A DNA stretch of 25,901 bases, from contig JAHQWW010000046.1 of assembly GCA_029856365.1 (NCBI GenBank), positions 1-25,901 on the forward strand. The letters run 5' to 3'. The notes under the pieces were generated by a model, which saw only the letters and a program-made list of their open reading frames with translations, was not told the DNA's origin and ran no database searches. Positions within the stretch are counted from its first letter, which is position 1; every line of letters starts with the position of its first letter. Source of the DNA: Candidatus Hodarchaeota archaeon (GTDB taxonomy: Archaea; Asgardarchaeota; Heimdallarchaeia; Hodarchaeales; Hodarchaeaceae). Below are positions 4,270-19,876 of the stretch, one piece after another. A program made the position numbers and the translations under genes.

Positions 4270-4273
4270 GAGC

Positions 4274-4951
4274 GTGAGCGAAAAAAGTATGAAGAATGCT
4301 AAAATACTAAATCCAATTAAATTTTACATAAAAAAAATCAACAAACTGTTACCTTATCCAAAATCAGTAAAAAAATCGATACTAGAAAGTTTAGAACAAG
4401 ATATAGTGGAAGCCATGGAAGATACTAATAATCCTGATCCAACAGAAGTGTTTGGTGACCCTTATACAGTAGCTAAAAACCTTAGTCATAGTAAAGGTTT
4501 AGGAATATCACCAGTTGGGTTTGGAATTAGGACAGTAGCTTATTTTATTGACTTCTTCCTTAGTCTCATAGTTTGTATCATCTTAATAATTCCTACAGTA
4601 TTTTTAATTGGTCCACATGTTGTTTATGAAACGAACCCGATTGTTTTCATTGCTGAATTCCTTTTGTTAATTTTGGGACTTATTTCTGGAATTTTCGTCT
4701 TTTTCGGTTACCCTATCCTTTTAGAGGGCCTTTTCTCAACCACAATAGGGAAGAAACTATTTGGATTGATCGTAATTGATGTTTCAGGAATAAGAATTTC
4801 TTGGAAACAAGCTATTATCCGGAATCTTCCAAAAACACAAGCAGAATTCCTATTCTTCGATGTTCTTATTGGGAAGTACATTCAAAAAACTACAAATCAA
4901 CGAGCGTTAGATCAAGTTGCTGAAACCCTTGTAGTAAGAGTAAAAAGTTAA
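4274..4951 (+). CDS. HAAS-like N-terminal helical domain fused to an RDD family membrane domain
   Basis: N-terminal FYIKKINKLL...FGDPYTVAKNL (HAAS-like); RDD motifs IRTVAYFIDF, TIGKKLFGLIV, IIRN and QRALDQVAETLVV. Confidence 0.85.
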   Translation: MSEKSMKNAKILNPIKFYIKKINKLLPYPKSVKKSILESLEQDIVEAMEDTNNPDPTEVFGDPYTVAKNLSHSKGLGISPVGFGIRTVAYFIDFFLSLIVCIILIIPTVFLIGPHVVYETNPIVFIAEFLLLILGLISGIFVFFGYPILLEGLFSTTIGKKLFGLIVIDVSGIRISWKQAIIRNLPKTQAEFLFFDVLIGKYIQKTTNQRALDQVAETLVVRVKS

Positions 4952-5018: not shown

Positions 5019-5843
5019 TTGAAAAATTGTCAAAACTGTGCAAATGAGTTTCCTAATGATTATCTATTTTGTCCAAAGTGTGGAGTTAAATTTAGCGGTA
5101 AAGAATTGGTTAGCTTCGAAGATAAAGATTCAAACCTCATGGTAGCCTGTTATAATCTCCATAAATCCTATTTGATGGGAAAAACTGCAGTTAATGCCTT
5201 AAGAGGTGTGGATCTCAAGGTCAATATTGGTGACTTTATATCAATTATGGGGCCATCTGGTTCTGGTAAATCAACATTAATGCACCTCTTGGGAGGATTA
5301 GATTCTCCATCTCGAGGCCATGTAGTCATAAGAAACTGGGAAAACAAACTAGTTGAAATCTCAAACCTCTCAAAAAATGAATTATCAGCTATCCGACTTC
5401 ATGTAACGGGATTTATTTTTCAACAGTTCTATTTATTACCAACTCTCACTGCAGCAGAAAACATTGCCATACCATTAATTTTCACTGGAGACAAATCAGA
5501 TTCATTTACAAAAACACGAACAAGTGAATTATTAGAGCTGGTTGGCCTTTCAAAAAGGGATCATCATCTCCCTTCAGAACTAAGCGGGGGTGAGCAGCAG
5601 CGTGTCGCTATAGCTCGAGCATTAGCCAACGATCCACCCCTTGTTCTTGCAGATGAACCCACGGGTGATCTAGACTCTCGAACTGGTCATATGATAATAC
5701 AAATACTTAAGAATCTTAATAAAATGGGAAAAACAGTAATTATGGTGACTCATGACTCCAGCGTCGCTGAATACGCAAAAACAACAATAAATATGATTGA
5801 TGGGAGGTTCACTAGAGGTCAAAAGATTTCTGGTGAGGGATAA
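5019..5843 (+). CDS. ABC transporter ATP-binding protein (LolD/MacB type) with an N-terminal zinc ribbon
   Basis: Walker [10 protein letters not shown]-loop [19 protein letters not shown], Walker B LADEPTG, H-loop VTHD; N-terminal CQNC..CPKCG. Confidence 0.95.
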
Positions 5844-5845
5844 TT

Positions 5846-8653
5846 TTGAATAATTTACAATCACCTTTTAAACAGTTTATATGGATGTTAAAATTCATTT
5901 ATCGCGATGCAAAAAAACATAAATTAAGAAATGCGATTGGAATTGTATCTATTGGCTTAAGTATAGGACTTTTAGTCGCTATGAACGCTACTGTTGATAC
6001 TTTATCCAATTCATATGTTGATTTAATTTTAAATACAACTCAAGATTATGATTATGAGATAAACCCCTCAGAAGGAATTTTTATTACCAATTATTCATAT
6101 CTTATTTCAGAAATCAATGAGCTTAATGAGATAAATGATGCAACACCTAGATACATTTCTCAGGCGTTCATGAGGATTCGATATGAATCACACGACATAA
6201 TTGATATTCCTGCTGTTTTAATTGGATTAAATATTACTAAAGAAAATGAGTTACAAATAGGGAGTTTTGATCCCGAAATAAGAGAGCCAATTGGTATAAA
6301 TCAATGTTTATTGATTGGAAATTTCGGTAAGAATGTTAAAACTGTATTAAACGAGAATTTATCAATAAATCACTTCTATATCAATTTTCAGGATACTATA
6401 GGTACTACTCATGAACATAAACTGGAAATTTCCCAAGTTATTGAAGACGATCAAAGATTACCAGCAAGATTCAACGTCGTTGTCGTTGATCTATCATTGA
6501 TAGAATCGTGGGTACAAATTGATGAAATTTGTACTACTGTTATTGGTAAATTTCAAGATACATCTATTTACTCAGCCATTGATCCCGAAACTTCAGTCCA
6601 AAAAGCTCAACAATTGGCAATTAAGATTCAATCCAAAATTGGGTTTGAATATTCTGTTGTGTTGCCTAAAGCCACAGCAATTGAAGCTGCGGATTTCTCT
6701 GGAATAAGATTGCTATTAAACTTTATTGGGATTCTAATCCTTTTACTGTCTACTTTATTAATCTACAGTCTTAATACAATATCAATTGAAGAGAAGAACC
6801 GTGAGTATGGAATGTTACGAACATTGGGGGTCAAAGATTTAAAAATTTTAATGATACTATTCTTAAATCAATTATTCAGTGTATTTTGGGGTATAATTGT
6901 AGGATTAGGCTTGGGATATATTTTTAGCATGTTTATTTCAAACATCCTTCTCTCAAGTTTGGAAAAATACACTATAGCCATTTCAGCTCAAACCATCTTA
7001 TTCTCTACTTCTATTGGCGCTCTAGCTGGATTTCTCTCTGCAATAAAACCAAGTATAAGCTTAATTAACAGAAACATTGTATTATCATTAGAAGTAGGTC
7101 GTCATTATGATCAAGAATACTCGATCAAGCGGGAGCGGCGTGTTTCTAAGTCGATGGGGTTGGTCGGATTAGCAATAGCAGGTGTTGGTTCAATATTTTT
7201 TGTTATTTTCCCCTTACTCAATATCCTTGATGATCCAAATTTATCGCAAATATTGTTCCTAAGCTTACTATTGTCGTTCTTAATAGGATCTGTTCTTCTA
7301 GTTGTTGGCGTTGTTTCTCCGCTTTTTGAGGGAATTCTTGCTAAGATTCTAATGTTACCCAAGAAAACCCGTAAAATAGGAATTCTCACAAAGACTTTTC
7401 TGTTAAAAAACCAAAGACGTAATTCCTTAACAGCTACAATCTTTGCTTTAAGTTTAGCTTTCATACTATATTTGTCAATGTCTAATAGCCTTCAGAACTA
7501 TACGATGATGGAGAATCTTAGACATTATTATGGTTCAGATATTGTTGTTCAGTCATCTGGTGCAATTAATGACTATGTTGATCCTTCTGTAATTTCTTTT
7601 ATTAGGAATCATGAAAATGTCTCAGGAGTTTCTTATACAAGCGCTGGAAACATTCTCTTATTGATTGGATGTCAAACCTCGTTAGGAGATATGGCTTTAT
7701 TCAACTCGATCTCACCAAGCGGTATCTATGCAATACCTGATCAAGAATTTGGAAATAGCCTATATTCATCTCCGTCTGTAAATAATAATGCTTGGAAAAA
7801 TCTTGTAGGAAAAAATAACACAGTTGTTGTTTCTCGAGCAATTGTTGAACGGCTAAAGATAAAAATAAATGAATCAGTTCGATTAAAAATCTATAGTCAA
7901 GTTGAGAATAATAATGAACTTTATGGTAAAAATTTGAATCTGACTATTGTTGGGATTGCTGATCGTGTGCCTGGTTTTAATGATGTACATATTACCTCAA
8001 AATTCGCTGATTCTTCAGCAGTATTTGTTGGGAATGAAACTTGGAATACGATAATGAAAAATAAGAAATTGAATGTAAGCGAACAAATTACTGTTAATTC
8101 ACATATAGACAGGGTTTTTATCAGAGGAGTTAGAGATGATTCTGAAATAATTGAAAGCATTCAACTTGACTTATTCTTAGAATATGGAACAGCTATTCAA
8201 ACAATTCGTATAGATACTCTTCTAGAAGATCTTGTAGCTCAACAGGAAGACAGTCGTGAAACTTTATCAGTCATTCTTTCATTGAGTCTTATTATCGCCT
8301 TCTTTTCAATCTTTAGCAGCACCCAGACAAGCATTATTGAAGCTTTACATGAGATTGGGATCATTAAAGCTATTGGACTTAAAGAAAAGGAATTAATACT
8401 GGTCTTTATTTCACAGGCGTTGATTCTAACTTTGATTTCTACGATTCTTGGTGGCTTAGTTGGTTACAGCCTAGCTTATCTTCAATGGCTTCAGAGTGCG
8501 ATTTCAACCGAGTTTCCTATAACAATCATTGCACCTGACCCAATTGTTCTATCAATTTATCTGATTGCGCTGTTACTAAGTATATTTGGAACTTATCTAC
8601 CTGTAAGATCGTTAAAGCACAAAGAACCCTCAGAAATATTAAGAACACTTTGA
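5846..8653 (+). CDS. ABC transporter permease with duplicated MacB/FtsX modules
   Basis: Two FtsX-type motifs (EKNREYGMLRTLG; EIGIIKAIG), two extracytoplasmic domains, C-terminal PSEILR; 2 bp after the ATPase stop. Confidence 0.92.
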   Translation: MNNLQSPFKQFIWMLKFIYRDAKKHKLRNAIGIVSIGLSIGLLVAMNATVDTLSNSYVDLILNTTQDYDYEINPSEGIFITNYSYLISEINELNEINDATPRYISQAFMRIRYESHDIIDIPAVLIGLNITKENELQIGSFDPEIREPIGINQCLLIGNFGKNVKTVLNENLSINHFYINFQDTIGTTHEHKLEISQVIEDDQRLPARFNVVVVDLSLIESWVQIDEICTTVIGKFQDTSIYSAIDPETSVQKAQQLAIKIQSKIGFEYSVVLPKATAIEAADFSGIRLLLNFIGILILLLSTLLIYSLNTISIEEKNREYGMLRTLGVKDLKILMILFLNQLFSVFWGIIVGLGLGYIFSMFISNILLSSLEKYTIAISAQTILFSTSIGALAGFLSAIKPSISLINRNIVLSLEVGRHYDQEYSIKRERRVSKSMGLVGLAIAGVGSIFFVIFPLLNILDDPNLSQILFLSLLLSFLIGSVLLVVGVVSPLFEGILAKILMLPKKTRKIGILTKTFLLKNQRRNSLTATIFALSLAFILYLSMSNSLQNYTMMENLRHYYGSDIVVQSSGAINDYVDPSVISFIRNHENVSGVSYTSAGNILLLIGCQTSLGDMALFNSISPSGIYAIPDQEFGNSLYSSPSVNNNAWKNLVGKNNTVVVSRAIVERLKIKINESVRLKIYSQVENNNELYGKNLNLTIVGIADRVPGFNDVHITSKFADSSAVFVGNETWNTIMKNKKLNVSEQITVNSHIDRVFIRGVRDDSEIIESIQLDLFLEYGTAIQTIRIDTLLEDLVAQQEDSRETLSVILSLSLIIAFFSIFSSTQTSIIEALHEIGIIKAIGLKEKELILVFISQALILTLISTILGGLVGYSLAYLQWLQSAISTEFPITIIAPDPIVLSIYLIALLLSIFGTYLPVRSLKHKEPSEILRTL

Positions 8654-8768
8654 TATAAGAGTTTAGATATCTTTTGGTTGTAAAAGAGATTAGGATGAGT
8701 GAGAGTTCTTTATTATCCAAAAACTTAATCTAGTATTGGATAAGACTAAATCCAAACTGGTGGAAATT

Positions 8769-9257
8769 ATGGTAAAGTTGGATACTGTAAAAATTGAGAT
8801 ACCAGAAGGAATAAACATAATTTTGGGTCAAACTCACTTCATTAAAACTGTGGAAGACTTGTACGAAGCTTTATCTGAGGCCTCTGCAGGAATAAAATTT
8901 GGCCTTGCCTTTTGTGAGGCATCAGGCCCTTGTCTTGTACGACATTCGGGGAATGACCCCGAACTTGAGAAAATCGCTTCAGAGATGGCCCTGAAGATAG
9001 GAGCAGGACATACTTTCATCATTTATTTAAGAAATGCTTTCCCAGTTAACGTTTTGAAACGTGTTCAGGCTGTTTCAGAGACAGTTTCAACTTTTTGTGC
9101 CACTGCTAATCCTATGGAGGTAATTATAGCAGAATCTGATCAGGGTCGGGGCATTCTTGGCGTGATTGATGGTTTTTCTCCCAAAGGTATTGAAACGAGT
9201 GAAGATATTGAAGAACGGAAAAAGTTTTTACGGACAATAGGTTATAAAACACCGTAA
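8769..9257 (+). CDS. DUF355 / adenosine-specific kinase family protein
   Basis: NIILGQTHFIKTVEDLYE, FGLAFCEASG, IGAGHTF, FCATANP, GRGILGVIDG and FLRTIGYK. Start placed at ATG 8769 after GGTGGA; the ORF track starts at 8736. Confidence 0.92.
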   Translation: MVKLDTVKIEIPEGINIILGQTHFIKTVEDLYEALSEASAGIKFGLAFCEASGPCLVRHSGNDPELEKIASEMALKIGAGHTFIIYLRNAFPVNVLKRVQAVSETVSTFCATANPMEVIIAESDQGRGILGVIDGFSPKGIETSEDIEERKKFLRTIGYKTP

Positions 9258-9302
9258 TTAACAATACTAAAGATCCTAACTTTATAAAAGTTACTTATTT
9301 CT

Positions 9303-10718
9303 TTAAAGTTTGACCCCACAATAAACACAGTATTGTGTATTATGAACGATTTCGCGTCCACAGGAACTACAAGATCTCGTGGTTTTGGTACCACAATAAA
9401 CACAAAATTGTGTATTAGGGACGATCTCACGCCCACATGAGCTACAAAAATTCTGGAACTTAGCTACAGGAGTTGGATAACCATAGGGATAGCTAGGAAT
9501 CGTTGCTTCAGGAAATGTGAGGTCTGAAACCCAATCAGGTTCCTTCAAAGGGCCAGATTTTTTGAAAATGAAAAATGCTAGTATTCCAATTAAAAGAACT
9601 AAATATACAACTCTAATGACATATTGAAGAACTAATAGATTTCCATTTGACTCTCCAAAAAGGTCAAATATTAAGTCAAAAACAATGGATGCTCCCCCCT
9701 CAATTCCTATAAACCCTAAAGCAATCAAACATACTGGGAGAAAACGGGAGGAACGAATGTTCATATCAGTAAGAATTTGAACCCATGCGGGAGGGTAAGG
9801 AGACCTTCTTTTTAGTATCAATTGAATAATTACAACCACGGCCGTCACAACACCTACAATAAGGAATGTTAACACCCAAAATACGTAGAATAAGAAGAGG
9901 GTATCGTCGTTAAGTTCTTGTGACCTGACTAATCCTATCTGTGCTACAGCTGCTACTCCATTATTTAAACCATGTAAAATAATTGGCCAGATAACTCTAC
10001 GTGTTCGCATATAAATATAACCTAATGTTATTCCACCAGCAAGAGTCCCAAAAAAATGGATGATTGTAAAACCAATAGAACCAAATAATAAATCCTGAGG
10101 AGTGTGCATCAGAGAAAATAGTAGACTAGAAAAAAGCAGAACCCAAAAAGTTCCTAGACCTCGACGTTCTAAAAAGGGGATAAAAGATCTTCGAAAGACT
10201 ACTTCCTCACTTATTGAAGCTCCTATAACATACATACCAAAGAATAAGACATAAAAAAGCGGAATCCCTAGTAATTCTACAGTTGGCTCAAATGCTTCAT
10301 AAGGGCTTTTGAACGAATAACCTAACTCCTCGAAAATTGCCGCAAAAATTGCAATACAAAATGTAAACGCAGATAACAACGAATAAACAAGCAATAGTGT
10401 AATCAAATGAGAACCCGATGGCATATTCTTCTCCTCTGGTTCCACTTTCTTATTATTATATAGAAATATGAAAATTATAATGGATCCTATTTGCGCTATT
10501 ACATTGATTGCGAGATTAGCAATTGTCTGGATTGACTCAGAATCAATTTCAAGAATTTTAAGAATAGTTGCAGCGACAAGACTAAGAAGCGTTAAATATC
10601 CAGTTAAATCAGAGAATGACATAATAAATAGGATAATTGCAAAAGGATAAAGTAAATCTTTATCTTGAATTGCCGTTTCTAATTTATTTTCACTATATAA
10701 TTCATCTTGTTTATCCAT
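9303..10718 (-). CDS. CPBP (Abi / CAAX protease type II, Rce1-like) intramembrane metalloprotease with C-terminal tandem zinc ribbons
   Basis: EEVVFR, FSLMH and HGLNN motifs in a multi-TM protein; C-terminal 2x CSSCGREIVxNTQxCVYCG. Confidence 0.9.
   Translation of the reverse strand: MDKQDELYSENKLETAIQDKDLLYPFAIILFIMSFSDLTGYLTLLSLVAATILKILEIDSESIQTIANLAINVIAQIGSIIIFIFLYNNKKVEPEEKNMPSGSHLITLLLVYSLLSAFTFCIAIFAAIFEELGYSFKSPYEAFEPTVELLGIPLFYVLFFGMYVIGASISEEVVFRRSFIPFLERRGLGTFWVLLFSSLLFSLMHTPQDLLFGSIGFTIIHFFGTLAGGITLGYIYMRTRRVIWPIILHGLNNGVAAVAQIGLVRSQELNDDTLFLFYVFWVLTFLIVGVVTAVVVIIQLILKRRSPYPPAWVQILTDMNIRSSRFLPVCLIALGFIGIEGGASIVFDLIFDLFGESNGNLLVLQYVIRVVYLVLLIGILAFFIFKKSGPLKEPDWVSDLTFPEATIPSYPYGYPTPVAKFQNFCSSCGREIVPNTQFCVYCGTKTTRSCSSCGREIVHNTQYCVYCGVKL
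9316..9447. repeat. Imperfect intragenic direct repeat (about 57 bp, 75-bp period) encoding the duplicated zinc ribbon
   Basis: ccacaataaacaca...ttgtgtatta...acgat...ccaca...ctacaa at 9316-9372 and 9391-9447. Confidence 0.85.
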
Positions 10719-10752
10719 ATCTGTTCACAAATCATTTAGTTTTAGTCGATAA

Positions 10753-11685
10753 TTAATATATGAAAAAAACTCCAAAGAAGAAAGCCCCTAATGCCCACCA
10801 TAGAGACCAACGGGTATACTTACGCGCTTTCTTCCCACCTGACGAAGGGGATTCTGTAATAACTGTGATGGAAGTTATTCCCAGAATAATAACTAAAGCT
10901 ACAAGAAAAAACCAAAATACTAAGTTATTATATTCCAGAACACCTACAATTGCTGCACAAATTACAGTAACGGTAAAGAATATTATCGCAACATAAGCTG
11001 CATTTTTAGGACCAAATTTAACTGCCAACGAGTTGAGATTAGATTTTAGGTCTCCTTCATAATCTTGGATATCTTTAACAATTTCTCTCCCAGTTGCCAA
11101 GAAAAATGTAGCAGCCATCATTAACAAACAGCTCAGGATAATTATATCATCTTGGGGTCTTAACAGGAAGAAACCTATAAAGAGAGGAGCAACGTAACCA
11201 ATTGAGACCCACATATTGCCAAAAAAACCATATCTTTTGACATAATTATATCCAACTCCTACAATCACACAGAATAACGTTGTGAGTACAAGAAATATTG
11301 TAACATCAAACGCAATTACTAAAATTGCTGAAATTAGAATTGAAATAGAATACATAACAATACATAATATCATCACATATTCAGGTGAAAAAGCCCCCCG
11401 AGCTATTGGACGATCGAATCTCTTATTTGCAATGTCTGTCTCAACATCATAAACATCATTTGTAGCTTCTATAGCAGAAGCAAGTAATAGGGTCGCAAGC
11501 ATCCCCAAGCTCAAACCTTGGATGTTTATAACACCATTCTCGAATAGGAATAAGCCAAAATCTGGAGGATCGCCTCTTAGCACAAACACGATAAAACCAG
11601 CTGCCAATACCGTAATAGAACTTAAAATACCTAATGAAAATCTGAATAAGTCCATGTAGTCCTTAATTCGCGTTTTTACTGCCAT
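10753..11685 (-). CDS. UbiA family prenyltransferase, digeranylgeranylglyceryl phosphate synthase (DGGGPS)-like
   Basis: NDVYDVETD..NKRFDRPIARG, YNYVKRYGFFGN and REIVKDIQDYEGD (DGGGPS-type second acidic motif); multi-TM. Confidence 0.88.
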   Translation of the reverse strand: MAVKTRIKDYMDLFRFSLGILSSITVLAAGFIVFVLRGDPPDFGLFLFENGVINIQGLSLGMLATLLLASAIEATNDVYDVETDIANKRFDRPIARGAFSPEYVMILCIVMYSISILISAILVIAFDVTIFLVLTTLFCVIVGVGYNYVKRYGFFGNMWVSIGYVAPLFIGFFLLRPQDDIIILSCLLMMAATFFLATGREIVKDIQDYEGDLKSNLNSLAVKFGPKNAAYVAIIFFTVTVICAAIVGVLEYNNLVFWFFLVALVIILGITSITVITESPSSGGKKARKYTRWSLWWALGAFFFGVFFIY

Positions 11686-11702
11686 AATTTTATCTTTCCA
11701 CT

Positions 11703-14015
11703 TTAATAGCGCTCTTTTTCTTTCATTGACTGATTTAGGTAGTTATTGACGACGTTCTTTTCAGTTTTGCCAAGGTAAAACCAATCAAAAATTAAGTCAT
11801 CAATAATTTCTTGTTTATTAGAAAAATCTGCTTCAGGATTTGCTTTTAATAATCCAATTATTTCATTCACCTTCTCTACTACTTGATTTTTTAACTTCTC
11901 GAAAAAACTATTTTTCTCCTTGGTAGTCGGTAATCGGATTGGTAGTCTTTTAAAATCCTCTGGAGTGGCATGTCCGCTCATACCACCAAGAGAAGTATTG
12001 ATAACTTTCCCTAGGAAGTAACTAGCAAGTTTCGAATTCAAATAACCTAGAATAAACTCGGTTTCCAATGTTATTCCATATAACAGATTACTATTCCCAG
12101 CCACAATAGAATGTTCAACTAGAGTTGCTTTTATTATACCTTCGTGTGCATTTGTTGTTATTCCCCTCTTGAAGTATAGATGAGGATTTCGAAAGACTGC
12201 TTTTCTCCCTCTTGATTCTCTCGCCTTTTTTTTTATTTGATTGACTGAATCAACACTCCAATCGATATACCATCCCTCTGTACCCCAATAAGGAAAGTAT
12301 GAACCTCTTTCAAAAGGAACTAGAAATTTTTTTCCCACAATGCCATTATGTCTATAGCATTCTAATGTCTCTTCATCTAAATCAGCTAGATTTATAATTT
12401 TGCCAGCATTAAGAACCCGATATTTTTCAACTTTCGTACTATGTTGGTGTTTTAATTTTTCCCAGAGTGGTGAATCCTGTATGATCACCAAGTGAGAATA
12501 ATTATCACCAGTTGAAATACCTTCCCCTCCACCAATATGGTGTCTTAATTCTTCATATTTCCAACCTTTAATAATATTGGTTGATTTCATTGAATTAGTG
12601 AATCTCATTATTTTAACAAATTTAGGATTTACATTAATCCAGAATGGATTTCCATTTATTCCCTCGTATTCTGCCTGATTAATAAACTGAACGCGATTTT
12701 TTTGGGGAATGAAATAATCTGATTGATTCTTAAGGCGATCAACCAATCTAATTCTATTGCTTCTTCGATCACGGCAAGATACACATTCACAATGACTTTT
12801 AATCTGTTGCTTAGAGTTTGTTGCCTCGTGACTATATCCCTTCTCACATAATTGCTTAGTTAAAGTGATTATACAAGTTCGTGAGATTGTCATTGGTCTG
12901 AAAAGGTCAATAGGGGCAAGTAAAATTTCATTAATCTTACAAGTGTCTAAGATCAGTCGTCTAAGGGTGGTATGAGATCGTAACGAGAGAAAAGTATCAC
13001 TGATTAAGAAACAAATTCGACCTCCATTTTTCACTCTCCTTACAGCATTTGCCAGAAAATATCCATAAAGGTCATTTCCACTTATTTTATAGCTATAAAC
13101 GCTCGCTTGGTCTCTATAGATTTTTTGATACAATTTTCTATCTTCAGAGGAAATTCTTTTCCCGTAGGGGGGATTTCCAATAATACAATCGTAGCCATCG
13201 CTATCGGTAACACCATTAAGATCCATTAATTTTAGAGTATCAGAGTTGGTTATTGTTGATCTACTTTTTATTTGCTCCCCAATACATAAAAAGGTTATTC
13301 GAAGATTTGAAAGAAGTACGGCAAATGGGTCAATATCGTTGCCCCAAACTTGAGAAATTGCCCTTTGAGTAGCGCTGATTTCGTCACTTCCTTGATTAAA
13401 GAGTTTTTCCTTAATCTGAGTAATACTTGCCTCTAGAAAATGTCCACTTCCGCAAGCAGGGTCGAAAACGGTTGAAACTGAAGATAGATTTAGTTTTGAC
13501 ACCATATAATCTACTGTTTCTCTAGGAGTGTAAAACGCCCCAAGAGCTTGTTGACGATGACATAATCTCAAAAGTTCTTGGTAAATCGCTCCTAATTGAT
13601 GGTAACTTAGTTTTTCAAAGTTATATCTTTTAAAATACTTAATTAAAGTCGTTTTTGTTTTCTGTGTAGGATTTAGATAATCGAAATCCGTTTTTGGAAG
13701 GTTGAGTTGAAAGTCAGATGCATTATTTCTACTATTAAGATATCTATATAGAATTTGCTTACTTAAATAATTTAATGAGGCTCGGGATACAATCTCTCTT
13801 TCTATTTTCTTTTCAGAATTGAAAAATGTTTCTTGTTTAAATTGAGAGAGTAATTTTGTTAAGGATTCATGAGTGTCTTCCTTATATTCTTTCCCATCCA
13901 AATCTGTAAGCTCTCTCTGGATTATTCGCTTGATTTGACTAGTTAAAGACTCTTGGACAGCAGAAGTGATTACAGGAAGTTCTCGTATTAAGTTTTTAAA
14001 TGAATGATCAGTCAT
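11703..14015 (-). CDS. Orphan N6-adenine DNA methyltransferase with a C-terminal target-recognition region (Eco57I/PglX-like)
   Basis: GAFYTP, FDPACGSGHF (SAM binding), GNDID, IGNPPY (catalytic), DLYGYF and LGYLNS; no recognisable nuclease domain. Confidence 0.88.
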   Translation of the reverse strand: MTDHSFKNLIRELPVITSAVQESLTSQIKRIIQRELTDLDGKEYKEDTHESLTKLLSQFKQETFFNSEKKIEREIVSRASLNYLSKQILYRYLNSRNNASDFQLNLPKTDFDYLNPTQKTKTTLIKYFKRYNFEKLSYHQLGAIYQELLRLCHRQQALGAFYTPRETVDYMVSKLNLSSVSTVFDPACGSGHFLEASITQIKEKLFNQGSDEISATQRAISQVWGNDIDPFAVLLSNLRITFLCIGEQIKSRSTITNSDTLKLMDLNGVTDSDGYDCIIGNPPYGKRISSEDRKLYQKIYRDQASVYSYKISGNDLYGYFLANAVRRVKNGGRICFLISDTFLSLRSHTTLRRLILDTCKINEILLAPIDLFRPMTISRTCIITLTKQLCEKGYSHEATNSKQQIKSHCECVSCRDRRSNRIRLVDRLKNQSDYFIPQKNRVQFINQAEYEGINGNPFWINVNPKFVKIMRFTNSMKSTNIIKGWKYEELRHHIGGGEGISTGDNYSHLVIIQDSPLWEKLKHQHSTKVEKYRVLNAGKIINLADLDEETLECYRHNGIVGKKFLVPFERGSYFPYWGTEGWYIDWSVDSVNQIKKKARESRGRKAVFRNPHLYFKRGITTNAHEGIIKATLVEHSIVAGNSNLLYGITLETEFILGYLNSKLASYFLGKVINTSLGGMSGHATPEDFKRLPIRLPTTKEKNSFFEKLKNQVVEKVNEIIGLLKANPEADFSNKQEIIDDLIFDWFYLGKTEKNVVNNYLNQSMKEKERY

Positions 14016-14021
14016 TATTGA

Positions 14022-15560
14022 TCAATCAATATACAGAATTGCTTCTAATGCTCTCTTCCAACGAGTTATTTTTTCAACACGTTTTTGAGAATCCAGGGAG
14101 GGATGAAAGTGTTGTGGCTCCATCTTTGAATATATCTCTTTTAGCTGCTTTTTGTCTTGCCAAAAGCCAACACTTAATCCTGCTAGGTATGCTGCTCCAG
14201 TCGCAGTCATGTCTGGTTCTGGGGCACGTATAACTTCCAAATTAGCAAAATCAGCAAGGCATTGCATCATAATATCTGATTTTGAAACTCCACCATCAGC
14301 TCTAAGCGAACGAATTGGTATTTTAGTATCCTTTTCTAAACCCTCAAGAATATCTACAAGTCGAAGCGCTATTCCTTCAAAAACAGCTCTTGCTACATGG
14401 CTACGATGTGTGTTTAATGATAATCCCAAAATGGTTCCTCGTGCATTAGGAAAAAAGTAAGGGAATCGTATCCCTGAAGGTGTTGGTATAAAAATTACTC
14501 CCTCTGTATCCTCACACTTTGCTGCATATTCATTCAGAATTTTTGGTGTATCACTTAACCCAATTCCTTGGCCAAGCCAGTCTATCAATGTACCTGCAGT
14601 AGCAACAAATCCCTCAAGCATATATGTTCCCCTTCCATTAATTACCCACGCAACAAGAGGAAATAAACCTCGTTTTGAGAGCTTTCCTGTTTTCCCTACG
14701 TTCATATCAACAAAACTCCCTGATCCTTGAGAGATTTTTACATCTCCTTGTTCAAAACAACATTGTCCAAAGAGGGCAGCCTGTTGGTCACCACACGCAG
14801 CGCGAATTTGAATCTCAGCTCCGTGAAATAAATTAGGATCAGTAGTTCCATAGTTGCCGTTCGTATCTTTTAATTCAGGAAGAATTTCTAATGGAATGTT
14901 AAAAATGTTTAAAATGGGTTTATTCCATTTTAGTTGAAAGGGATTTAAGAGTCCTGTTGCTGCATTACTATAATCAGAAGCATGAACTTTTCCCCCTGTT
15001 AATTTGTAAATAAACCAAGAATCAATAGTTCCAAAGGCTATCTCTCCTACTTTACATCGTTCGTAAAGGCCTTCAATATTATCTAAGACCCAACATAGCC
15101 GTACAGTAACATGATCTGTGGTGTAATTAAGCATAGAAGTTGCAGTAAGCATGGTATTTCGGGTAATTCTACACGCGACCCAAGCAAACTTCTTTAAAAG
15201 CCGCCATTTCTTATTTTTATTCATCTGATTGCATGTATCTACTGCACGAACATCAGCCCAGTTAATGAAGTTGATAACAGGTTTTCCAGTGTCTCTTTCC
15301 CAAAGTGTGAAGCTAGCACGTTGATTTGCAATTCCAATTGCTGCAATATCCTTTGGAGATACCTCTGGGTTCTCAAAGATTCGATTGACAATTGTAATTA
15401 ATGATTGCCAAAGCTCGATAGGATCATGTTCAATCCACCCTACTTTTGGATAAAGCGCCGTTGTTTTTTGATACTCACGGGCAATTATTTCTCCCTTTTT
15501 GTTAAACAGAACTGCTCGAATACCAGTTGATCCACTATCAATTGCCAGAATGTAATGCAT
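14022..15560 (-). CDS. glpK: FGGY family glycerol kinase, GK5-like subtype
   Basis: AIDSGSTG, NQRAS, FGTIDSW, GDQQAALFGQCC, LRADGGVS and TGAAYLAGLSVGFW. Confidence 0.88.
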   Translation of the reverse strand: MHYILAIDSGSTGIRAVLFNKKGEIIAREYQKTTALYPKVGWIEHDPIELWQSLITIVNRIFENPEVSPKDIAAIGIANQRASFTLWERDTGKPVINFINWADVRAVDTCNQMNKNKKWRLLKKFAWVACRITRNTMLTATSMLNYTTDHVTVRLCWVLDNIEGLYERCKVGEIAFGTIDSWFIYKLTGGKVHASDYSNAATGLLNPFQLKWNKPILNIFNIPLEILPELKDTNGNYGTTDPNLFHGAEIQIRAACGDQQAALFGQCCFEQGDVKISQGSGSFVDMNVGKTGKLSKRGLFPLVAWVINGRGTYMLEGFVATAGTLIDWLGQGIGLSDTPKILNEYAAKCEDTEGVIFIPTPSGIRFPYFFPNARGTILGLSLNTHRSHVARAVFEGIALRLVDILEGLEKDTKIPIRSLRADGGVSKSDIMMQCLADFANLEVIRAPEPDMTATGAAYLAGLSVGFWQDKKQLKEIYSKMEPQHFHPSLDSQKRVEKITRWKRALEAILYID

Positions 15561-15787: not shown

Positions 15788-17056
15788 ATGCCAGAACAAC
15801 AAAAAGTGTTTATTGCCGGAGGCACCACCACACCCTTTGATTATCCATTAAATCTTCAAATTGAAGAGATGGTGGCGAATTGTATCCGGCAACTCTATAA
15901 AGATGTCCCTGAGTTTCATCTGAAGGATGTCAGGGATAACGGAATGGTAGTTTACTCCCATTTCTCAGTCCACTTTAGTCATCAGTTAACTGCTTATTGG
16001 ATTTTGCACGATCATCTTGGACTTGTAGGTGTTCCCCACTTTCGAATCGATAATGGTGGCAATACGGGTGGCTCCGCTTTGTATGCTGCCTATGCTCTTG
16101 TGCGAGCAGGGCTCGCAGATGTTGTTCCAGTAATCGGATACGAATTAATGGGTTCTGTTTCACAAAGTAAAGGATCAGAATTCATTGCCATTGCGTCAGA
16201 TACTAGATATGAAGCAATGCTTGGAGCCAATTATACCAATTACTATGCAGGATTAGCACGGGTTTTTATGGAAGAATATGGATTAACAGAAGAAGATTTC
16301 GCTGAAATAGCAGCCAAAAATAAAAATAATGCCGTAGCCACAGGTGAAAAAGCTCAGCATTATCGTAAAGTCGGAAATAAATTGACTGTTGAAGATGTCA
16401 TGAATAGCCGATTAATTTCCTATCCACTAAAAAAATGGGATTGTTGTTTTATGTCTGAGGGAGCCGCAACAGTCTTAGTGTGCAATGAACAGTTTGCTAA
16501 GCAATATTCTCCTGACTATTATGTTGAGATTGTTGGAGCAGGTTTATCATCTTGCACTATTCGTGCAGGTGATCGTTATGCCTTTCCAGGATGGACAGAA
16601 CGATACGGGGAAGGTTACCCTGGACTAGGAGAATTCGCTGCATGTCGTCATTCCGCGGAAGTCGCGTTCAAAATGGCTGGTATCGAATGGAAAGATTCCT
16701 ACAAATATTTAGACGTAGCAGAAGTACATGATGCCTTCTCAACCTCTGAATTCCAAATATACAATGCTCTTGGTTGGTGTCAGTCAATTACGCCAAAACA
16801 ATTCATTCGAGACAGAATGCCCATGATGGAAGGCGAAATTCCCACAAACCCTGGTGGTGGGCTTATTGGTTACGGACACCCAGTTGGGGCTACTGGATTA
16901 ATGTCTACTGTCGAATGTTACTACCAGCTCGCAGGTTTGATTTCAAGAGAGCACAGATCAACAGATAATGAAGTAAAAGATGCTGAAGTTGGTTTAGTCA
17001 ATTCTCATGCAGGGACAGGAACATCAATTAGCAATTTCATATTAAAGAGAGTGTGA
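15788..17056 (+). CDS. SCP2-type thiolase-fold protein lacking the nucleophilic cysteine
   Basis: AKNKNNA, DCCFMSEGAA, EVHDAF, NPGGGLIGYGHPVGATG and SHAGTG; the nucleophile loop reads DNGGNTGG instead of xxACASG. Confidence 0.88.
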   Translation: MPEQQKVFIAGGTTTPFDYPLNLQIEEMVANCIRQLYKDVPEFHLKDVRDNGMVVYSHFSVHFSHQLTAYWILHDHLGLVGVPHFRIDNGGNTGGSALYAAYALVRAGLADVVPVIGYELMGSVSQSKGSEFIAIASDTRYEAMLGANYTNYYAGLARVFMEEYGLTEEDFAEIAAKNKNNAVATGEKAQHYRKVGNKLTVEDVMNSRLISYPLKKWDCCFMSEGAATVLVCNEQFAKQYSPDYYVEIVGAGLSSCTIRAGDRYAFPGWTERYGEGYPGLGEFAACRHSAEVAFKMAGIEWKDSYKYLDVAEVHDAFSTSEFQIYNALGWCQSITPKQFIRDRMPMMEGEIPTNPGGGLIGYGHPVGATGLMSTVECYYQLAGLISREHRSTDNEVKDAEVGLVNSHAGTGTSISNFILKRV

Positions 17057-17061
17057 GGTGA

Positions 17062-17733
17062 ATGTTGATGGAAAAGAATTTACATCCAACCCCAAATAAC
17101 AAAGATTTTATCTGGGAAAAATGGATTAAACTAAATGAAAAAATTCCTGAAAAAGGTTGGACATGGCAGAATGTTCGCTCAGGTATTGCGGGGAACGTCG
17201 AATGGATAGAGCAGCAAATCTATTATGACATGTTATATACTTTCAGGTTAGGTGCCTTAAGTCCATACGCTAAAGGATTACTAGAAGGAAAACTACTTGG
17301 TACAAAATGTCCAAAGTGTGGTGACATAACATTTCCTCCTCGAGTCAATTGCTGGCGGCTTGACTGTAATCTTGAAATAACAGAGTGGATCGAAATGCCA
17401 CATTCGGGAATTCTACATACTTTCACCATCTGTGGCTTTGCTGCCAAAAGTGCGTTGAAGAAGTTACCTTTTGTTCTTGCATATGTTCTTGTTGGGAAGA
17501 GTAAGACTGCAATTGCGAACATATTAAAAATAGCAGAACCTTGGCACGTGGAATCAGATATGCCAGTCATTGTAAAGTTTACTGAGAAGAAGCGAGTCGG
17601 TAACCTTATTGACTTCTGGTTTGAACCAGATCCAAGCTGGCATCCATCTCCAATGACTCCTGAAAAGGAACGAATTAAAAAATTATGTGAACCTGTTTAT
17701 GAATGGATTAAGATATTAAAGAGGAGTATTTAG
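17062..17733 (+). CDS. DUF35 family zinc-ribbon / OB-fold protein (thiolase partner)
   Basis: GKLLGTKCPKCG..FPPRVNCWRLDC, EWIEMPHSGILHTFT and PFVLAYV; GAGGTG SD overlapping the thiolase stop. Confidence 0.9.
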   Translation: MLMEKNLHPTPNNKDFIWEKWIKLNEKIPEKGWTWQNVRSGIAGNVEWIEQQIYYDMLYTFRLGALSPYAKGLLEGKLLGTKCPKCGDITFPPRVNCWRLDCNLEITEWIEMPHSGILHTFTICGFAAKSALKKLPFVLAYVLVGKSKTAIANILKIAEPWHVESDMPVIVKFTEKKRVGNLIDFWFEPDPSWHPSPMTPEKERIKKLCEPVYEWIKILKRSI

Positions 17734-17734
17734 T

Positions 17735-17752
17735 CTTTTTCACATTTTTTTG
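17735..17752 (+). terminator. T-rich terminator candidate after DUF35
   Basis: tctttttcacattttttt directly after the stop codon. Confidence 0.4.
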
Positions 17753-17884
17753 ATTATTCTTTAGAATTTAGTTATGTACGTTAAATCATAATCGAACTGA
17801 ATTGATTAGATAATTTTAATTATAAAAATAGTATATAATGAAAAAGATCATATTTTAAAAATCTAGGTAATAGAATTAGCAATC

Positions 17885-19876
17885 TTGGTGGTGAAGATCT
17901 TGCCTAAATTACTTTGGGCACCCTCTGAGGAGCAAATCAAACAAACAAACATGACTGGTTTCATTGAGTTTGTGAATAATGAATATAATCTTGATTTGAC
18001 CTCTTATCATCAACTCTATAATTGGTCTATTGAAAACATTCCAGATTTTTGGGCAGCAATGTGGGATTATGGGGGAATTATTGCTTCTAGAAAGTATAAA
18101 ACGGTGGTTGACAACTTTGATGACTTTTTTACCGTTGAATGGTTTCCAGGCGCACGATTAAATTTTGCAGAAAATTTATTACGATATCACGATGATAAAA
18201 ACCACCTTGCTTTCATATTTCATGGGGAAAATCAAAGATCAAGAAGAATGACTTACAGCGAGCTCTTTTCTCAAGTTACACGATTTGCCAAAACATTACA
18301 TGAGTTAAATGTTACTCTTGGAGATTGTGTTGCTGGCTATATCCCGAATTTAATAGAGACAGTAATAGCTATGTTGGCTGCTACAAGTCTTGGAGCAACA
18401 TGGGCATCTTGTGGAGCGGAGCTAGGCCCAACAGCTGTCTTAGATCGCTTTAGCCAGATAGAGCCCAAGATTATAATCACGTCTGATGGATATTTCTACA
18501 AAGGAAAAACATTTTCCAGTATAAATAATGTTGAACAGGTTATCAGGGAACTACCTTCTGTAGAAAGAGTTATAGTGACCCCCTATATTAAAGAAACTCC
18601 AAATATTGATACTATTCCTCATTCCACACATTATTTGGAGTTTCTAGCTCCAGAAACCCATCCGCATATTAAATTTGAACAATTACCCTTTTCTCATCCT
18701 GGTTATATTATGTTTTCTAGTGGAACGACTGGAAAACCTAAGTGTATGGTTCAAAGCACGGGAGGAGTCTTACTTACTCAATTAAGAGATTTAATATTGC
18801 ATACAGATGTAAAAAAAACCGATCGAATCACCTACAACACTTCACCTTCTTGGATGATGTGGAATTGGCTGAACTGTTCACTAGCGGTTGGAGCGACTAT
18901 TTTACTTTATGATGGAAATCCACTATATCCTGATTGGGGAGCTATGTGGAAATTAATTCAAGGTGAAAAAATTACAATTTTTGGCACAAGTGCTAGTTAT
19001 CTCCATTATCTAAGTGGGATTGGCGCTCAACCAGGTAAGAAGTATGATTTGTCCTCTTTACGGGTAATCTCTCAAACTGCCTCACCCATATCATCAGAAG
19101 CAATGGAATGGCTCTATAAAGAAGTGAAGAAAGATTTTCATTTCAATTCAATTACTGGAGGGTCTGATCTTAACGCAATATTTGCAGGGGGGTGCCCAAT
19201 CCTACCGCTTTATGCCGAGGTACCCATACAATGCCGAGCTTTAGGGATGAAGGTTGAGGCGTATAATGATAAAGCTGTAGCTGTTAGAGATCAGCAAGCA
19301 GAACTTGTAGTAGAACATCCATTTCCTAGTGCTCCATTGTACTTTTGGAATGATCCCAAGAATAAGAAGTATGAACAAGCATATTTCACTTTTTTCAAAC
19401 CAACGGGTAAAACAGTCTGGCGACACGGGGATTATATTATCATCCATCGTGAAACGGAGGGAATAACCGTCTTTGGAAGGTCGGATGCGGTTTTGAAACC
19501 TTCTGGAGTTCGTATTGGAACATCAGAGATTTATAATACTGTGGAAACATTACCTGAGATTGAGGATAGTCTTGCCATAGGACAGAACTGGAAGGGAGAT
19601 CAAAGAATCATTCTCTTTGTAAAAATAACCGAAGGTTATTCTTTAACAGAAGAATTAAAGAATAAGATTAAGAAAATTTTACGAGAAAAGGCCTCACCTC
19701 GCCATGTTCCTACATTAATCTTAGAAACACCTGATATCCCATATACATTCTCAATGAAAAAAGTTGAAATTGCAGTCACAAATATTATTCATGGCAAACC
19801 AGTGACAAATCGAGGTGCATTATCCAATCCAGAATCGTTGGATTTTTTCGAAAAAATTCGTTTTGATTTAGTCTGA
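17885..19876 (+). CDS. Acetoacetyl-CoA synthetase (acetoacetate-CoA ligase)
   Basis: WFPGARLNFAENLL, YIMFSSGTTGKPKC, WMMWNW, WRHGD, GRSDAVLKPSGVRIGTSEIY, SPRHVP, KKVEIAV and ALSNPESL. Start may be TTG 17900 after GGTGGTGA. Confidence 0.93.
   Translation: MVVKILPKLLWAPSEEQIKQTNMTGFIEFVNNEYNLDLTSYHQLYNWSIENIPDFWAAMWDYGGIIASRKYKTVVDNFDDFFTVEWFPGARLNFAENLLRYHDDKNHLAFIFHGENQRSRRMTYSELFSQVTRFAKTLHELNVTLGDCVAGYIPNLIETVIAMLAATSLGATWASCGAELGPTAVLDRFSQIEPKIIITSDGYFYKGKTFSSINNVEQVIRELPSVERVIVTPYIKETPNIDTIPHSTHYLEFLAPETHPHIKFEQLPFSHPGYIMFSSGTTGKPKCMVQSTGGVLLTQLRDLILHTDVKKTDRITYNTSPSWMMWNWLNCSLAVGATILLYDGNPLYPDWGAMWKLIQGEKITIFGTSASYLHYLSGIGAQPGKKYDLSSLRVISQTASPISSEAMEWLYKEVKKDFHFNSITGGSDLNAIFAGGCPILPLYAEVPIQCRALGMKVEAYNDKAVAVRDQQAELVVEHPFPSAPLYFWNDPKNKKYEQAYFTFFKPTGKTVWRHGDYIIIHRETEGITVFGRSDAVLKPSGVRIGTSEIYNTVETLPEIEDSLAIGQNWKGDQRIILFVKITEGYSLTEELKNKIKKILREKASPRHVPTLILETPDIPYTFSMKKVEIAVTNIIHGKPVTNRGALSNPESLDFFEKIRFDLV

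What the first reader, a model, noticed from the sequence alone, without database searches (positions are those of the whole stretch)
14022..15560. Glycerol kinase of the animal GK5 type rather than the bacterial GlpK type
Seen: QRAS instead of the GlpK QRET, NFINWADVRA, and an insertion NKNKKWRLLKKFAWVACRITRNTMLTATSMLNYTTDHVTVRL replacing the GlpK 'TGL..DPYFS..K' segment; also CCFEQGDVKI, GSFVDMN, GLFPLVAW and IPIRSLRADGGV. From recall these match the metazoan GK5 subfamily (QRAT, NFISWQDLRA, a basic amphipathic insertion, CCFxxGDVKL, GFYPLIGW, IRADGGV). Mammalian GK5 is linked to SREBP and lipid regulation. Inference: a possible archaeal antecedent of eukaryotic GK5 whose insertion binds membrane, located next to lipid genes.
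Basis: partly seen in the sequence, partly recalled or inferred. Interest (0 to 1): 0.7.

Follow-up and report, generated by a model that had tools for sequence, protein, structure and literature searches.

The report
Asgard GK5-type glycerol kinase paralogue
This Asgard archaeon carries, beside its ordinary glycerol kinase, a second kinase of the "GK5" type whose archaeal clade is the closest prokaryotic relative of animal and amoebal GK5, so eukaryotic GK5 may come from the archaeal side; databases already name the protein type, and its substrate is untested.

Summary
The ORF at 14022-15560 (-) is real and every quoted motif is present. It is an intact FGGY kinase that scores below both NCBIfam GlpK cut-offs. 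The same genome also holds a canonical GlpK on another contig.

A careful IQ-TREE mixture-model tree puts it in a prokaryotic clade made of Asgard lineages, with Spirochaetota nested among them. That clade is sister to eukaryotic GK5 (Metazoa, Capsaspora, Chromosphaera, Acanthamoeba, Balamuthia, Arcella) with support 100/96. An AU test rejects pairing the eukaryotes with the next-closest prokaryotic group (p = 0.0009).

Both clades share four features:
- QR[A/G/S/N][S/T] in place of QRET.
- Loss of the DPYFS tyrosine.
- DGGV in place of DGGA.
- A basic helical segment of almost constant length, 29 residues against about 13 in GlpK.

The GK5-type call and the possible archaeal antecedent are therefore supported. 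Membrane binding by the insertion is untested. The "lipid neighbours" are positional only: the gene sits in a variable slot that is empty or differently filled in GK5-less species of the same genus.

NCBI, UniRef and the ESM Atlas already call these proteins "glycerol kinase 5", so this is a new member of a known kind. The most likely function is a second glycerol kinase. A different substrate remains a serious rival.

The parts
14022..15560 (-). GK5-type FGGY kinase gene, 512 aa (P0001)
   Evidence: ORF. FGGY_N plus FGGY_C. Below both GlpK cut-offs. Placed in the GK5-like clade. AlphaFold2 mean pLDDT 95.3.
15312..15323 (-). QRAS (residues 80-83), in place of the QRET of GlpK. The Arg is kept; the Glu that I recall as a glycerol contact is Ala82.
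   Evidence: Alignments. QR[A/G/S/N][S/T] occurs in both the Asgard and the eukaryotic GK5 rows.
15141..15227 (-). Basic helical segment, residues 112-140 (net charge +8), about 16 residues longer than in GlpK
   Evidence: Helices 117-133 and 136-143 in blocks of mean pLDDT 93-97. Hydrophobic moment among the top 12 windows of the protein. Length almost constant at about 29 residues and net charge +2 to +9 across all GK5 clades, against about 13 residues and about 0 in GlpK.
15117..15119 (-). Asp148 codon (in TTDH), aligned to the tyrosine of the GlpK DPYFS motif
   Evidence: phmmer alignment to 3g25. MAFFT alignments.
14787..14789 (-). Asp258 codon (in GDQQAA), the conserved catalytic-base position of FGGY kinases
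   Evidence: Invariant column in the 85-sequence alignment A1.
14286..14297 (-). DGGV (residues 422-425). GK5-type rows have DGGV; all the other groups aligned except one (Theionarchaea, DGNA) have DGGA.
   Evidence: Alignment. G423 is invariant.
11703..14015 (-). 770-aa N6-adenine DNA methyltransferase-like gene, 6 bp downstream of the kinase. It shares the variable slot with it.
   Evidence: N6_Mtase, Eco57I and TaqI_C domains. Weak matches to PglX and MAD2 models. Only 58-70% identical in syntenic loci, replaced by an unrelated 702-aa ORF in L035, and absent in G118.
10753..11685 (-). UbiA-family prenyltransferase paralogue (conserved flank)
   Evidence: PF01040. Below all NCBIfam cut-offs. 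Fourth-best DGGGP-synthase-like match in the genome.
9303..10718 (-). CPBP/CAAX-type intramembrane protease with C-terminal zinc ribbons (conserved flank)
   Evidence: Rce1-like plus zinc-ribbon domains. Syntenic in relatives.
15788..19876 (+). Divergently transcribed thiolase (15788-17056), DUF35/ChsH2-type zinc-ribbon protein (17062-17733) and acetoacetate-CoA ligase (17885-19876). Conserved flank.
   Evidence: acetoacetate-CoA ligase 815 bits, above its cut-off. 71-96% identical in syntenic loci. The thiolase/DUF35 pair is also present in GK5-less species.

Best explanation
The gene encodes an intact, soluble, ATP-dependent FGGY sugar kinase of the GK5-like subfamily. It is a paralogue of the genome's canonical glycerol kinase.

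Most likely it phosphorylates glycerol to glycerol phosphate as a second isozyme (inferred). It would use the conserved Asp258 as catalytic base and the conserved phosphate- and adenosine-binding glycines (shown to be present). Its polyol pocket is remodelled: the Arg, Trp and Phe positions are kept, Glu is replaced by Ala82, and Tyr is replaced by Asp148. A conserved basic helical segment is added between two positions that contact the substrate in GlpK.

In evolutionary terms it belongs to an old clade dominated by Asgard archaea, which has also been passed to Spirochaetota. This clade is the sister group of eukaryotic GK5. Eukaryotic GK5 therefore plausibly descends from the archaeal side of eukaryote ancestry (inferred from the tree; the direction of descent is not shown).
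For: Architecture and fold:
- FGGY_N plus FGGY_C.
- AlphaFold2 mean pLDDT 95.3. The best Foldseek hits are all glycerol kinases with TM-scores of 0.84-0.91.

Catalytic residues:
- D8, G10, D258, G279, G423 and G455 are invariant; Q80, R81 and W101 are nearly invariant.

Not a canonical GlpK:
- 478 bits against a cut-off of 498, and 473 against 590.
- A canonical GlpK (711 bits, above its cut-off) lies at C34 of the same genome.

Phylogeny:
- FastTree with 186 rows gives the GK5 superclade 99.
- Quick PMSF trees give 97.
- The careful LG+C20+F+G4 PMSF tree with 60 rows gives 100/96 for eukaryotes plus the prokaryotic GK5-like clade. The deepest prokaryotic branches are Asgard: P0322, and the G040-like clade found in 17 of 41 genomes of one Asgard family.
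- The AU test rejects eukaryotes plus the 521-aa Actinomycetota/Thermoplasmatota group (p = 0.0009).

Eukaryotic members named by their sources: Metazoa, Chromosphaera, Arcella; Acanthamoeba, Balamuthia, Capsaspora.

Shared derived characters.

Support for glycerol as substrate:
- A paper citing Zhang 2017 states that mouse GK5 has glycerol kinase activity in vitro (PMC6473107).
- In the sister Asgard subclade the kinase sits in a strictly conserved operon: FAD oxidase, CCG iron-sulphur protein (weak GlpC/GlcF/LdhH-like matches), kinase, alpha/beta hydrolase. This is the logic of kinase plus dehydrogenase seen in GlpK/GlpD.

Independent naming: NCBI, UniRef and the ESM Atlas all use 'glycerol kinase 5'.
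Against: - No enzyme of the prokaryotic clade has been assayed.
- Two of the six residues that I recall as contacting glycerol in E. coli GlpK are changed. A canonical GlpK is already present, so a different substrate is quite possible.
- The query's own subclade has no conserved functional partner. The gene lies in a variable slot, occurs in only 9 of 22 genomes of its genus, and does not track PlsY.
- The first careful tree, which lacked the deep Asgard lineages, left the eukaryote/prokaryote GK5 node unresolved.
- By raw identity, the 521-aa group is closer to amoebozoan GK5 (44-46%) than the Asgard core clade is (about 40-42%).
- Monophyly of the prokaryotic clade has only 93/81 support.
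- The eukaryotes I saw are all Amorphea, so presence in the last eukaryotic common ancestor is not shown.
Confidence: 0.6

Rival explanations
1. The enzyme is an active kinase whose physiological substrate is not free glycerol. Candidates are a glycerol derivative (monoalkyl- or monoacylglycerol, glycerophospho compound), another small polyol, or a hydroxy acid. The basic insertion would help to bind an anionic or lipidic moiety.
For: - Glu to Ala82 and Tyr to Asp148 at positions that I recall as glycerol contacts in GlpK.
- The added segment is conservedly basic and lies between those two positions.
- A canonical GlpK coexists in the genome.
- In the sister subclade the partners are a GlcD-like FAD oxidase and a CCG iron-sulphur protein, which in known systems oxidise 2-hydroxy acids as often as glycerol-3-phosphate.
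Against: - Mouse GK5 shares QR[A/S]T and the insertion, and is reported to phosphorylate glycerol in vitro (PMC6473107).
- The Arg, Trp, Asp and Phe positions of the pocket are kept.
- No transporter or pathway gene points to another substrate.
Confidence: 0.3
2. The sister relation between Asgard and eukaryotes does not reflect descent from the archaeal host. Either eukaryotic GK5 was acquired by an early amorphean from a prokaryote by horizontal transfer, or Asgard archaea acquired it from a eukaryote or a bacterium.
For: - All named eukaryotic members seen are Amoebozoa or Holozoa.
- The gene is patchy in Asgard: 9 of 22 genomes in the genus, and 4 of 120 in a sample of the phylum.
- It has clearly moved between Asgard and Spirochaetota.
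- The tree cannot give the direction of transfer.
Against: - Three deep Asgard lineages lie at the base of the prokaryotic clade, and bacteria are nested within it.
- The clade spans MAGs labelled Heimdall, Hod, Loki, Thor, Odin, Hermod and Sigyn and three GTDB families. That argues for long residence in Asgard.
- The eukaryotes are not nested in any bacterial group.
Confidence: 0.4
3. It is merely a divergent canonical GlpK, and the resemblance to GK5 is convergent or an artefact of long branches.
For: - phmmer scores against metazoan GK5 (337-370 bits) are no higher than against bacterial GlpK (about 360 bits).
- The core clade sits on a long stem of 0.61.
Against: - Five trees of different size and method never place it with canonical GlpK.
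- The near-identical length of the indel and the DGGV motif are shared with eukaryotic GK5.
- The AU test.
- Features from a protein language model put GK5 clusters first.
Confidence: 0.04

Closest known systems
Metazoan glycerol kinase 5 (GK5; mouse Gk5 and human GK5)
   Same: - FGGY_N plus FGGY_C architecture.
- QR[A/G/S/N][S/T] in place of QRET, loss of the DPYFS tyrosine, and DGGV.
- A 29-residue basic helical segment of the same length.
- Sister clades in the tree.
   Different: - Only 34-36% identical.
- The archaeal core clade has Asp at the former Tyr position and IDSGSTG rather than LDVGTT at the N-terminal phosphate loop.
- Some eukaryotic members carry extra domains: FHA in Acanthamoeba, NUDIX in Capsaspora.
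- Binding to SREBP is a mammalian property with no counterpart tested here.
Canonical glycerol kinase GlpK (E. coli, Enterococcus, Staphylococcus, Thermococcus; PDB 1bu6, 3flc, 3g25, 6k78)
   Same: - Same fold (TM-score 0.84-0.91).
- 35-38% identity over the full length.
- The catalytic Asp and the ATP-binding motifs are kept.
   Different: - Below both NCBIfam GlpK cut-offs.
- Glu84 and Tyr135 (E. coli numbering, from memory) are replaced.
- A 16-residue basic insertion is present.
- A separate canonical GlpK exists in the same genome.
Spirochaetota 'glycerol kinase 5' (Leptospira and Spirochaetales proteins, named so by UniRef and NCBI)
   Same: Same core clade (100/100). 55-59% identical, with the same motifs and insertion.
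   Different: The hosts are bacteria, and no neighbouring genes are shared. None has been characterised as far as I could find.
G040-like Asgard GK5-like kinases in the operon FAD oxidase, CCG iron-sulphur protein, kinase, alpha/beta hydrolase
   Same: Sister subclade within the prokaryotic GK5-like clade (96/93). Has QRAS, TTDH or STEH, DGGV and the same insertion length.
   Different: About 41% identical to the query. Sits in a strictly conserved four-gene operon in at least six genera, which the query's subclade lacks.

Membership tests
GK5-like subfamily of FGGY kinases | FGGY_N plus FGGY_C two-domain architecture with intact catalytic Asp and ATP-binding glycines | tested here: met
   (D8, G10, D258, G279, G423 invariant).
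GK5-like subfamily of FGGY kinases | Groups phylogenetically with bona fide eukaryotic GK5 to the exclusion of canonical GK/GlpK | tested here: met
   100/96 in the careful PMSF tree; AU p = 0.0009 against the rival pairing. It is the sister clade, not nested inside eukaryotic GK5.
GK5-like subfamily of FGGY kinases | Sequence signatures: QR[A/G/S/N][S/T] in place of QRET; DGGV in place of DGGA; a roughly 29-residue basic segment between the Trp and the former DPYFS motif | tested here: met
   These signatures were derived here from sequences that their sources name as GK5.
GK5-like subfamily of FGGY kinases | Membership of the curated CDD model 'GK5-like' as against 'EcGK-like' | not testable with these tools
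   No CDD search is available. As proxies, NCBI names relatives that are 60-91% identical 'glycerol kinase 5', and the ESM Atlas nearest clusters are named 'Glycerol kinase 5'.
GK5-like subfamily of FGGY kinases | Glycerol kinase activity | not testable with these tools
   Known only second-hand for mouse GK5 (PMC6473107). The primary paper (PMC5495269) is not held.
Canonical glycerol kinase GlpK (NCBIfam TIGR01311 / NF000756) | Score above the curated cut-off of the family model | tested here: not met
   473 bits against 590, and 478 against 498. The genome's other copy scores 711.
Canonical glycerol kinase GlpK (NCBIfam TIGR01311 / NF000756) | Glycerol-contact residues Glu (in QRET) and Tyr (in DPYFS) | tested here: not met
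   Ala82 and Asp148 at the aligned positions. The role of these residues in GlpK is from my memory of the E. coli structures.

The most novel reading that the evidence does not exclude
GK5 is a gene that eukaryotes inherited vertically from their Asgard ancestor. On this reading the archaeal host already had a second, remodelled glycerol kinase with a basic surface helix. Its product fed glycerol-phosphate lipid metabolism, and the gene survives today in Amorphea as GK5. It would then be one of the few lipid-related metabolic enzymes of archaeal rather than bacterial origin, and it would make the chirality and substrate of the Asgard enzyme directly relevant to the 'lipid divide'.
Probability: 0.35. 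Interest if true: 0.6.

Novelty: new member of a known kind. Interest (0 to 1): 0.42.

Why it matters
Most eukaryotic lipid and glycerol metabolism is thought to be of bacterial origin. A glycerol-kinase paralogue whose closest prokaryotic relatives are Asgard archaea is a small but concrete exception that can be tested.

Two purified enzymes from one Hodarchaeales-type genome, the canonical GlpK and the GK5-type kinase, could be compared for substrate, product chirality and lipid binding.

It also gives the poorly understood animal GK5 a set of simple prokaryotic homologues for structural and enzymatic work.

The practical limit is that the type is already named in the databases, and its function in archaea is unknown.

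Tried and rejected
I took genomic context from the search for related loci, the genome search and the fetch from genomes instead.
- The primary GK5 paper (Zhang 2017, PMC5495269) is not held. Its kinase-activity result is cited only through PMC6473107.
- A literature search for GK5 in archaea or Asgard found nothing relevant. One Loki/Thor paper notes several glpK homologues, most of them not bona fide glpK.
- Co-occurrence with a PlsY-family gene in the genus: both present in 6 genomes, GK5 only in 3, PlsY only in 5, neither in 8. This shows no association.
- The neighbouring UbiA as the organism's DGGGP synthase: rejected. It is the fourth-best match, and a better candidate lies at C94.
- A functional operon with UbiA and the thiolase: rejected as evidence, because GK5-less congeners keep that locus.
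- No neighbours are shared with the Spirochaetales loci or with Asgard family f25.
- The canonical GlpK has no glp operon around it.
- No GpsA-type glycerol-3-phosphate dehydrogenase was found in the genome, which is 83.6% complete. One GlpA/GlpD-type gene was found.
- The first careful tree (70 rows) left the key node unresolved. Adding the deep Asgard lineages found with a eukaryotic query resolved it.
- Model coordinates cannot be read in the script box. I therefore could not measure burial of the insertion or its distance from the pocket.
Full report
**Observation**

The window carries an uninterrupted 512-codon ORF at 14022..15560 on the minus strand. Pfam finds FGGY_N (residues 3-265) and FGGY_C (275-462).

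The two NCBIfam glycerol-kinase models are the best hits, but both fall below their curated cut-offs: 478 bits against 498 for NF000756, and 473 against 590 for TIGR01311. The antisense ORF at 14152..14460 lies inside the gene and I take it to be spurious.

**A paralogue, not the organism's glycerol kinase**

The same assembly (4.24 Mb, 204 contigs, 83.6% complete; the window is contig C43) holds a canonical GlpK at C34:3280-4770. It scores 711 bits, above the cut-off. In every tree it sits among canonical QRET-type kinases, together with the GlpK of other Asgard genomes.

**Who has it**

- The closest proteins (60-91% identical) come from Asgard MAGs labelled Hodarchaeota/Hodarchaeales, Promethearchaeota, Thor-, Hermod-, Odin-, Heimdall-, Loki- and Sigynarchaeota. 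NCBI already names many of them 'glycerol kinase 5'.
- Leptospira and other Spirochaetota follow at 55-59% identity. UniRef also calls these 'Glycerol kinase 5'.
- In the GTDB genus of the window, 9 of 22 genomes carry the gene (65-100% identical).
- In an even sample of 120 genomes of the phylum, only the window's genome, two genomes of another family (56-59%) and one divergent copy (41%, G040) matched above the level of canonical GlpK.
- The divergent G040-like form occurs in 17 of 41 genomes (7 of 13 genera) of a further Asgard family.

**Relation to eukaryotic GK5**

The search of cluster representatives and the look-ups of cluster members gave real eukaryotic GK5 sequences:
- Styela, Anopheles and Macrobrachium.
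- The ichthyosporean Chromosphaera and the amoebozoan Arcella.
- A second search seeded with an amoebozoan-like protein added Acanthamoeba, Balamuthia and Capsaspora.
- A search seeded with a eukaryotic protein also uncovered deep prokaryotic lineages that my first query had not reached: a Promethearchaeota protein (P0322), the G040-like clade, and a 521-aa group from Actinomycetota, Thermoplasmatota, Theionarchaea and Bathyarchaeia.

Trees:

| Tree | Rows | Support for eukaryotic plus prokaryotic GK5 |
|---|---|---|
| FastTree | 186 | 99 |
| Quick PMSF | 70 | 97 |
| Quick PMSF | 85 | 97 |
| Careful PMSF, without the deep Asgard lineages | 70 | unresolved |
| Careful LG+C20+F+G4 PMSF, with the deep Asgard lineages | 60 | 100/96 |

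In the final tree the eukaryotes are monophyletic (95/92) and the prokaryotic clade is monophyletic (93/81). Within the prokaryotic clade:
- P0322 (Asgard) branches first.
- The G040-like Asgard clade (100/100) comes next.
- Then comes a core clade (100/100). There the query sits with Heimdall-, Hod-, Odin- and Thor-labelled sequences (100/98), and Spirochaetota, Leptospira and one other bacterial lineage are nested among the Asgard lines.

By raw identity the 521-aa group is closer to amoebozoan GK5 (44-46%) than the Asgard core clade is (40-42%). I therefore tested 'eukaryotes plus 521-aa group' as one clade. The AU test rejects it (delta lnL 60.9, p = 0.0009).

**Shared characters**

| Character | Asgard/Spirochaete and eukaryotic GK5 clades | Other groups |
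|---|---|---|
| QRET motif | QR[A/G/S/N][S/T] | QRET in canonical GlpK |
| Tyr of DPYFS | Lost | Present in the bacterial canonical GlpK rows |
| C-terminal motif | DGGV | DGGA in the canonical, E. limosum-type, Planctomycetota and Actinomycetota rows; DGNA in Theionarchaea |
| Segment at query 112-140 | About 29 residues | 13-15 in canonical GlpK; 39 in the 521-aa group |
| Net charge of that segment | +2 to +9 | About 0 in canonical GlpK |

A search based on a protein language model independently puts three 'Glycerol kinase 5' clusters first, from Spirochaetota, Chordata and Arthropoda (scores 0.98-0.99).

**Structure**

AlphaFold2 with an 85-sequence alignment gives mean pLDDT 95.3 and pTM 0.93. 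The best Foldseek matches are all glycerol kinases (TM-scores 0.84-0.91).

The extra residues form part of a long helix (117-133) and a further helix (136-143), in 10-residue blocks of mean pLDDT 93-97. The helix is amphipathic: two 11-residue windows are among the 12 highest hydrophobic moments of the protein. Residues 112-140 carry a net charge of +8.

A confidently modelled amphipathic helix is what one expects of a helix packed on the domain with its basic face outward. This is compatible with binding an anionic surface such as a membrane, but it does not show that. I could not read the coordinates, so I measured neither burial nor distance to the pocket.

**Active site**

D8, G10, D258 (in GDQQ), G279, G423 and G455 are invariant across 85 sequences. 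Q80, R81 and W101 are nearly so. The protein should therefore be an active kinase.

From memory, six residues contact glycerol in E. coli GlpK: Arg83, Glu84, Trp103, Tyr135, Asp245 and Phe270. Here the Arg, Trp, Asp and Phe positions are kept, Glu is Ala82 and Tyr is Asp148. The Asp or Glu at the former Tyr position is conserved in the core and G040-like Asgard clades but not in eukaryotes. It may take over the role of the lost Glu, which is an inference.

**Context**

In six related Asgard loci, one of them on a complete 4.9-Mb chromosome, the gene order is conserved. On one strand lie acetoacetate-CoA ligase, DUF35 and thiolase. They are transcribed divergently from the GK5-like gene, the 770-aa N6-methyltransferase-like gene, UbiA, and the CPBP protease.

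However:
- Species of the same genus without the kinase keep UbiA and the protease directly beside the thiolase/DUF35 pair (G118), or have other ORFs in between (G101, G132).
- In one GK5-positive relative (L035) the methyltransferase is replaced by an unrelated 702-aa ORF.

The kinase and the methyltransferase therefore occupy a variable slot, and the adjacency to 'lipid genes' is positional. The UbiA is only the fourth-best DGGGP-synthase-like gene of the genome.

The Spirochaetales loci and Asgard family f25 share no neighbours with the window.

By contrast, the G040-like subclade has a strictly conserved, tightly spaced operon in at least six genera:
- a GlcD-like FAD oxidase;
- a CCG iron-sulphur protein, with weak matches to TfrB, LdhH, GlpC and GlcF;
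- the GK5-like kinase;
- an alpha/beta hydrolase.

This is the logic of a hydrolase, a kinase and a dehydrogenase acting in sequence, as in glycerol catabolism. It is indirect support for a glycerol-type substrate in the wider clade.

**Function**

A paper citing the primary study states that mouse GK5 has glycerol kinase activity in vitro, unlike GK2 and GYKL1 (PMC6473107). The primary paper is not held.

Together with the retained catalytic residues, this makes a second glycerol kinase the most likely function (about 0.6). A different substrate remains a serious rival (about 0.3), given the changed pocket, the basic insertion and the coexisting canonical GlpK.

The genome shows no GpsA-type glycerol-3-phosphate dehydrogenase, one GlpA/GlpD-type gene and one PlsY-family gene. 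The kinase does not co-occur with PlsY across the genus.

**Novelty and verdict**

The assignment to type is already in public annotation, so this is a new member of a known kind. I found no paper that discusses GK5 in archaea.

The result that adds something is phylogenetic. Eukaryotic GK5, which is not confined to animals but also occurs in Amoebozoa and unicellular Holozoa, is sister to an old clade dominated by Asgard archaea. This is compatible with inheritance from the archaeal host. It does not prove it: the eukaryotes seen are all Amorphea, the gene is patchy in Asgard, and it has moved into Spirochaetota.

An earlier first-reader note of this scan covers the same stretch as a 'candidate operon' (e1-5680628). 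My synteny comparison argues against a functional operon.

Noticed in passing
window 11703-14015 (-): A 770-aa N6-adenine methyltransferase-like gene (N6_Mtase, Eco57I and TaqI_C domains; weak PglX/MAD2-like matches) starts 6 bp after the kinase. It diverges much faster than its neighbours (58-70% against 85-96%). It is replaced by an unrelated 702-aa ORF in L035 and is absent in G118. The region looks like a variable defence or modification slot.
   Followed up: partly
L113 (G040:C15) 7079-12483; L123-L127: A conserved four-gene operon in one Asgard family, across at least six genera: GlcD-like FAD oxidase, CCG iron-sulphur protein, GK5-like kinase, alpha/beta hydrolase. It may be a non-orthologous counterpart of GlpK/GlpABC, or a 2-hydroxy-acid pathway.
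   Followed up: partly
window 15788-19876 (+): A thiolase, a DUF35 zinc-ribbon protein and an acetoacetate-CoA ligase (815 bits, above its cut-off) form a conserved cluster (71-96% identical in relatives). It suggests acetoacetate activation feeding acetoacetyl-CoA metabolism or the mevalonate pathway.
   Followed up: no
P0438 (Acanthamoeba castellanii), P0442 (Capsaspora owczarzaki): Two eukaryotic GK5 homologues are fused to extra domains according to precomputed Pfam hits: FHA in Acanthamoeba (803 aa) and NUDIX in Capsaspora (828 aa).
   Followed up: no
window 5019-8653 (+): An ABC ATPase with an N-terminal double zinc ribbon is followed by a 935-aa FtsX-type permease. A PadR regulator and an RDD-family membrane protein (3910-4951) precede them.
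   Followed up: no
window 8736-9257 (+): A gene of the 'adenosine-specific kinase' family (PF04008, 249 bits) lies beside the CPBP protease. It is syntenic in all related loci.
   Followed up: no
G000:C94:34577-34966 and C94:42186-43049: The genome's only GlpA/GlpD-type glycerol-3-phosphate dehydrogenase match lies about 7 kb from its best DGGGP-synthase-like UbiA gene (177 bits). This may be a more meaningful glycerol-phosphate/lipid neighbourhood than the one in the window.
   Followed up: no
P0125, P0352, P0368, P0382, P0191 and relatives: A separate group of about 521-aa non-canonical glycerol-kinase homologues from Actinomycetota, Thermoplasmatota, Theionarchaea and Bathyarchaeia. They have QR[A/S]T and an even longer basic insertion (39 residues), but the DGGA motif. 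They are uncharacterised as far as I could see.
   Followed up: partly
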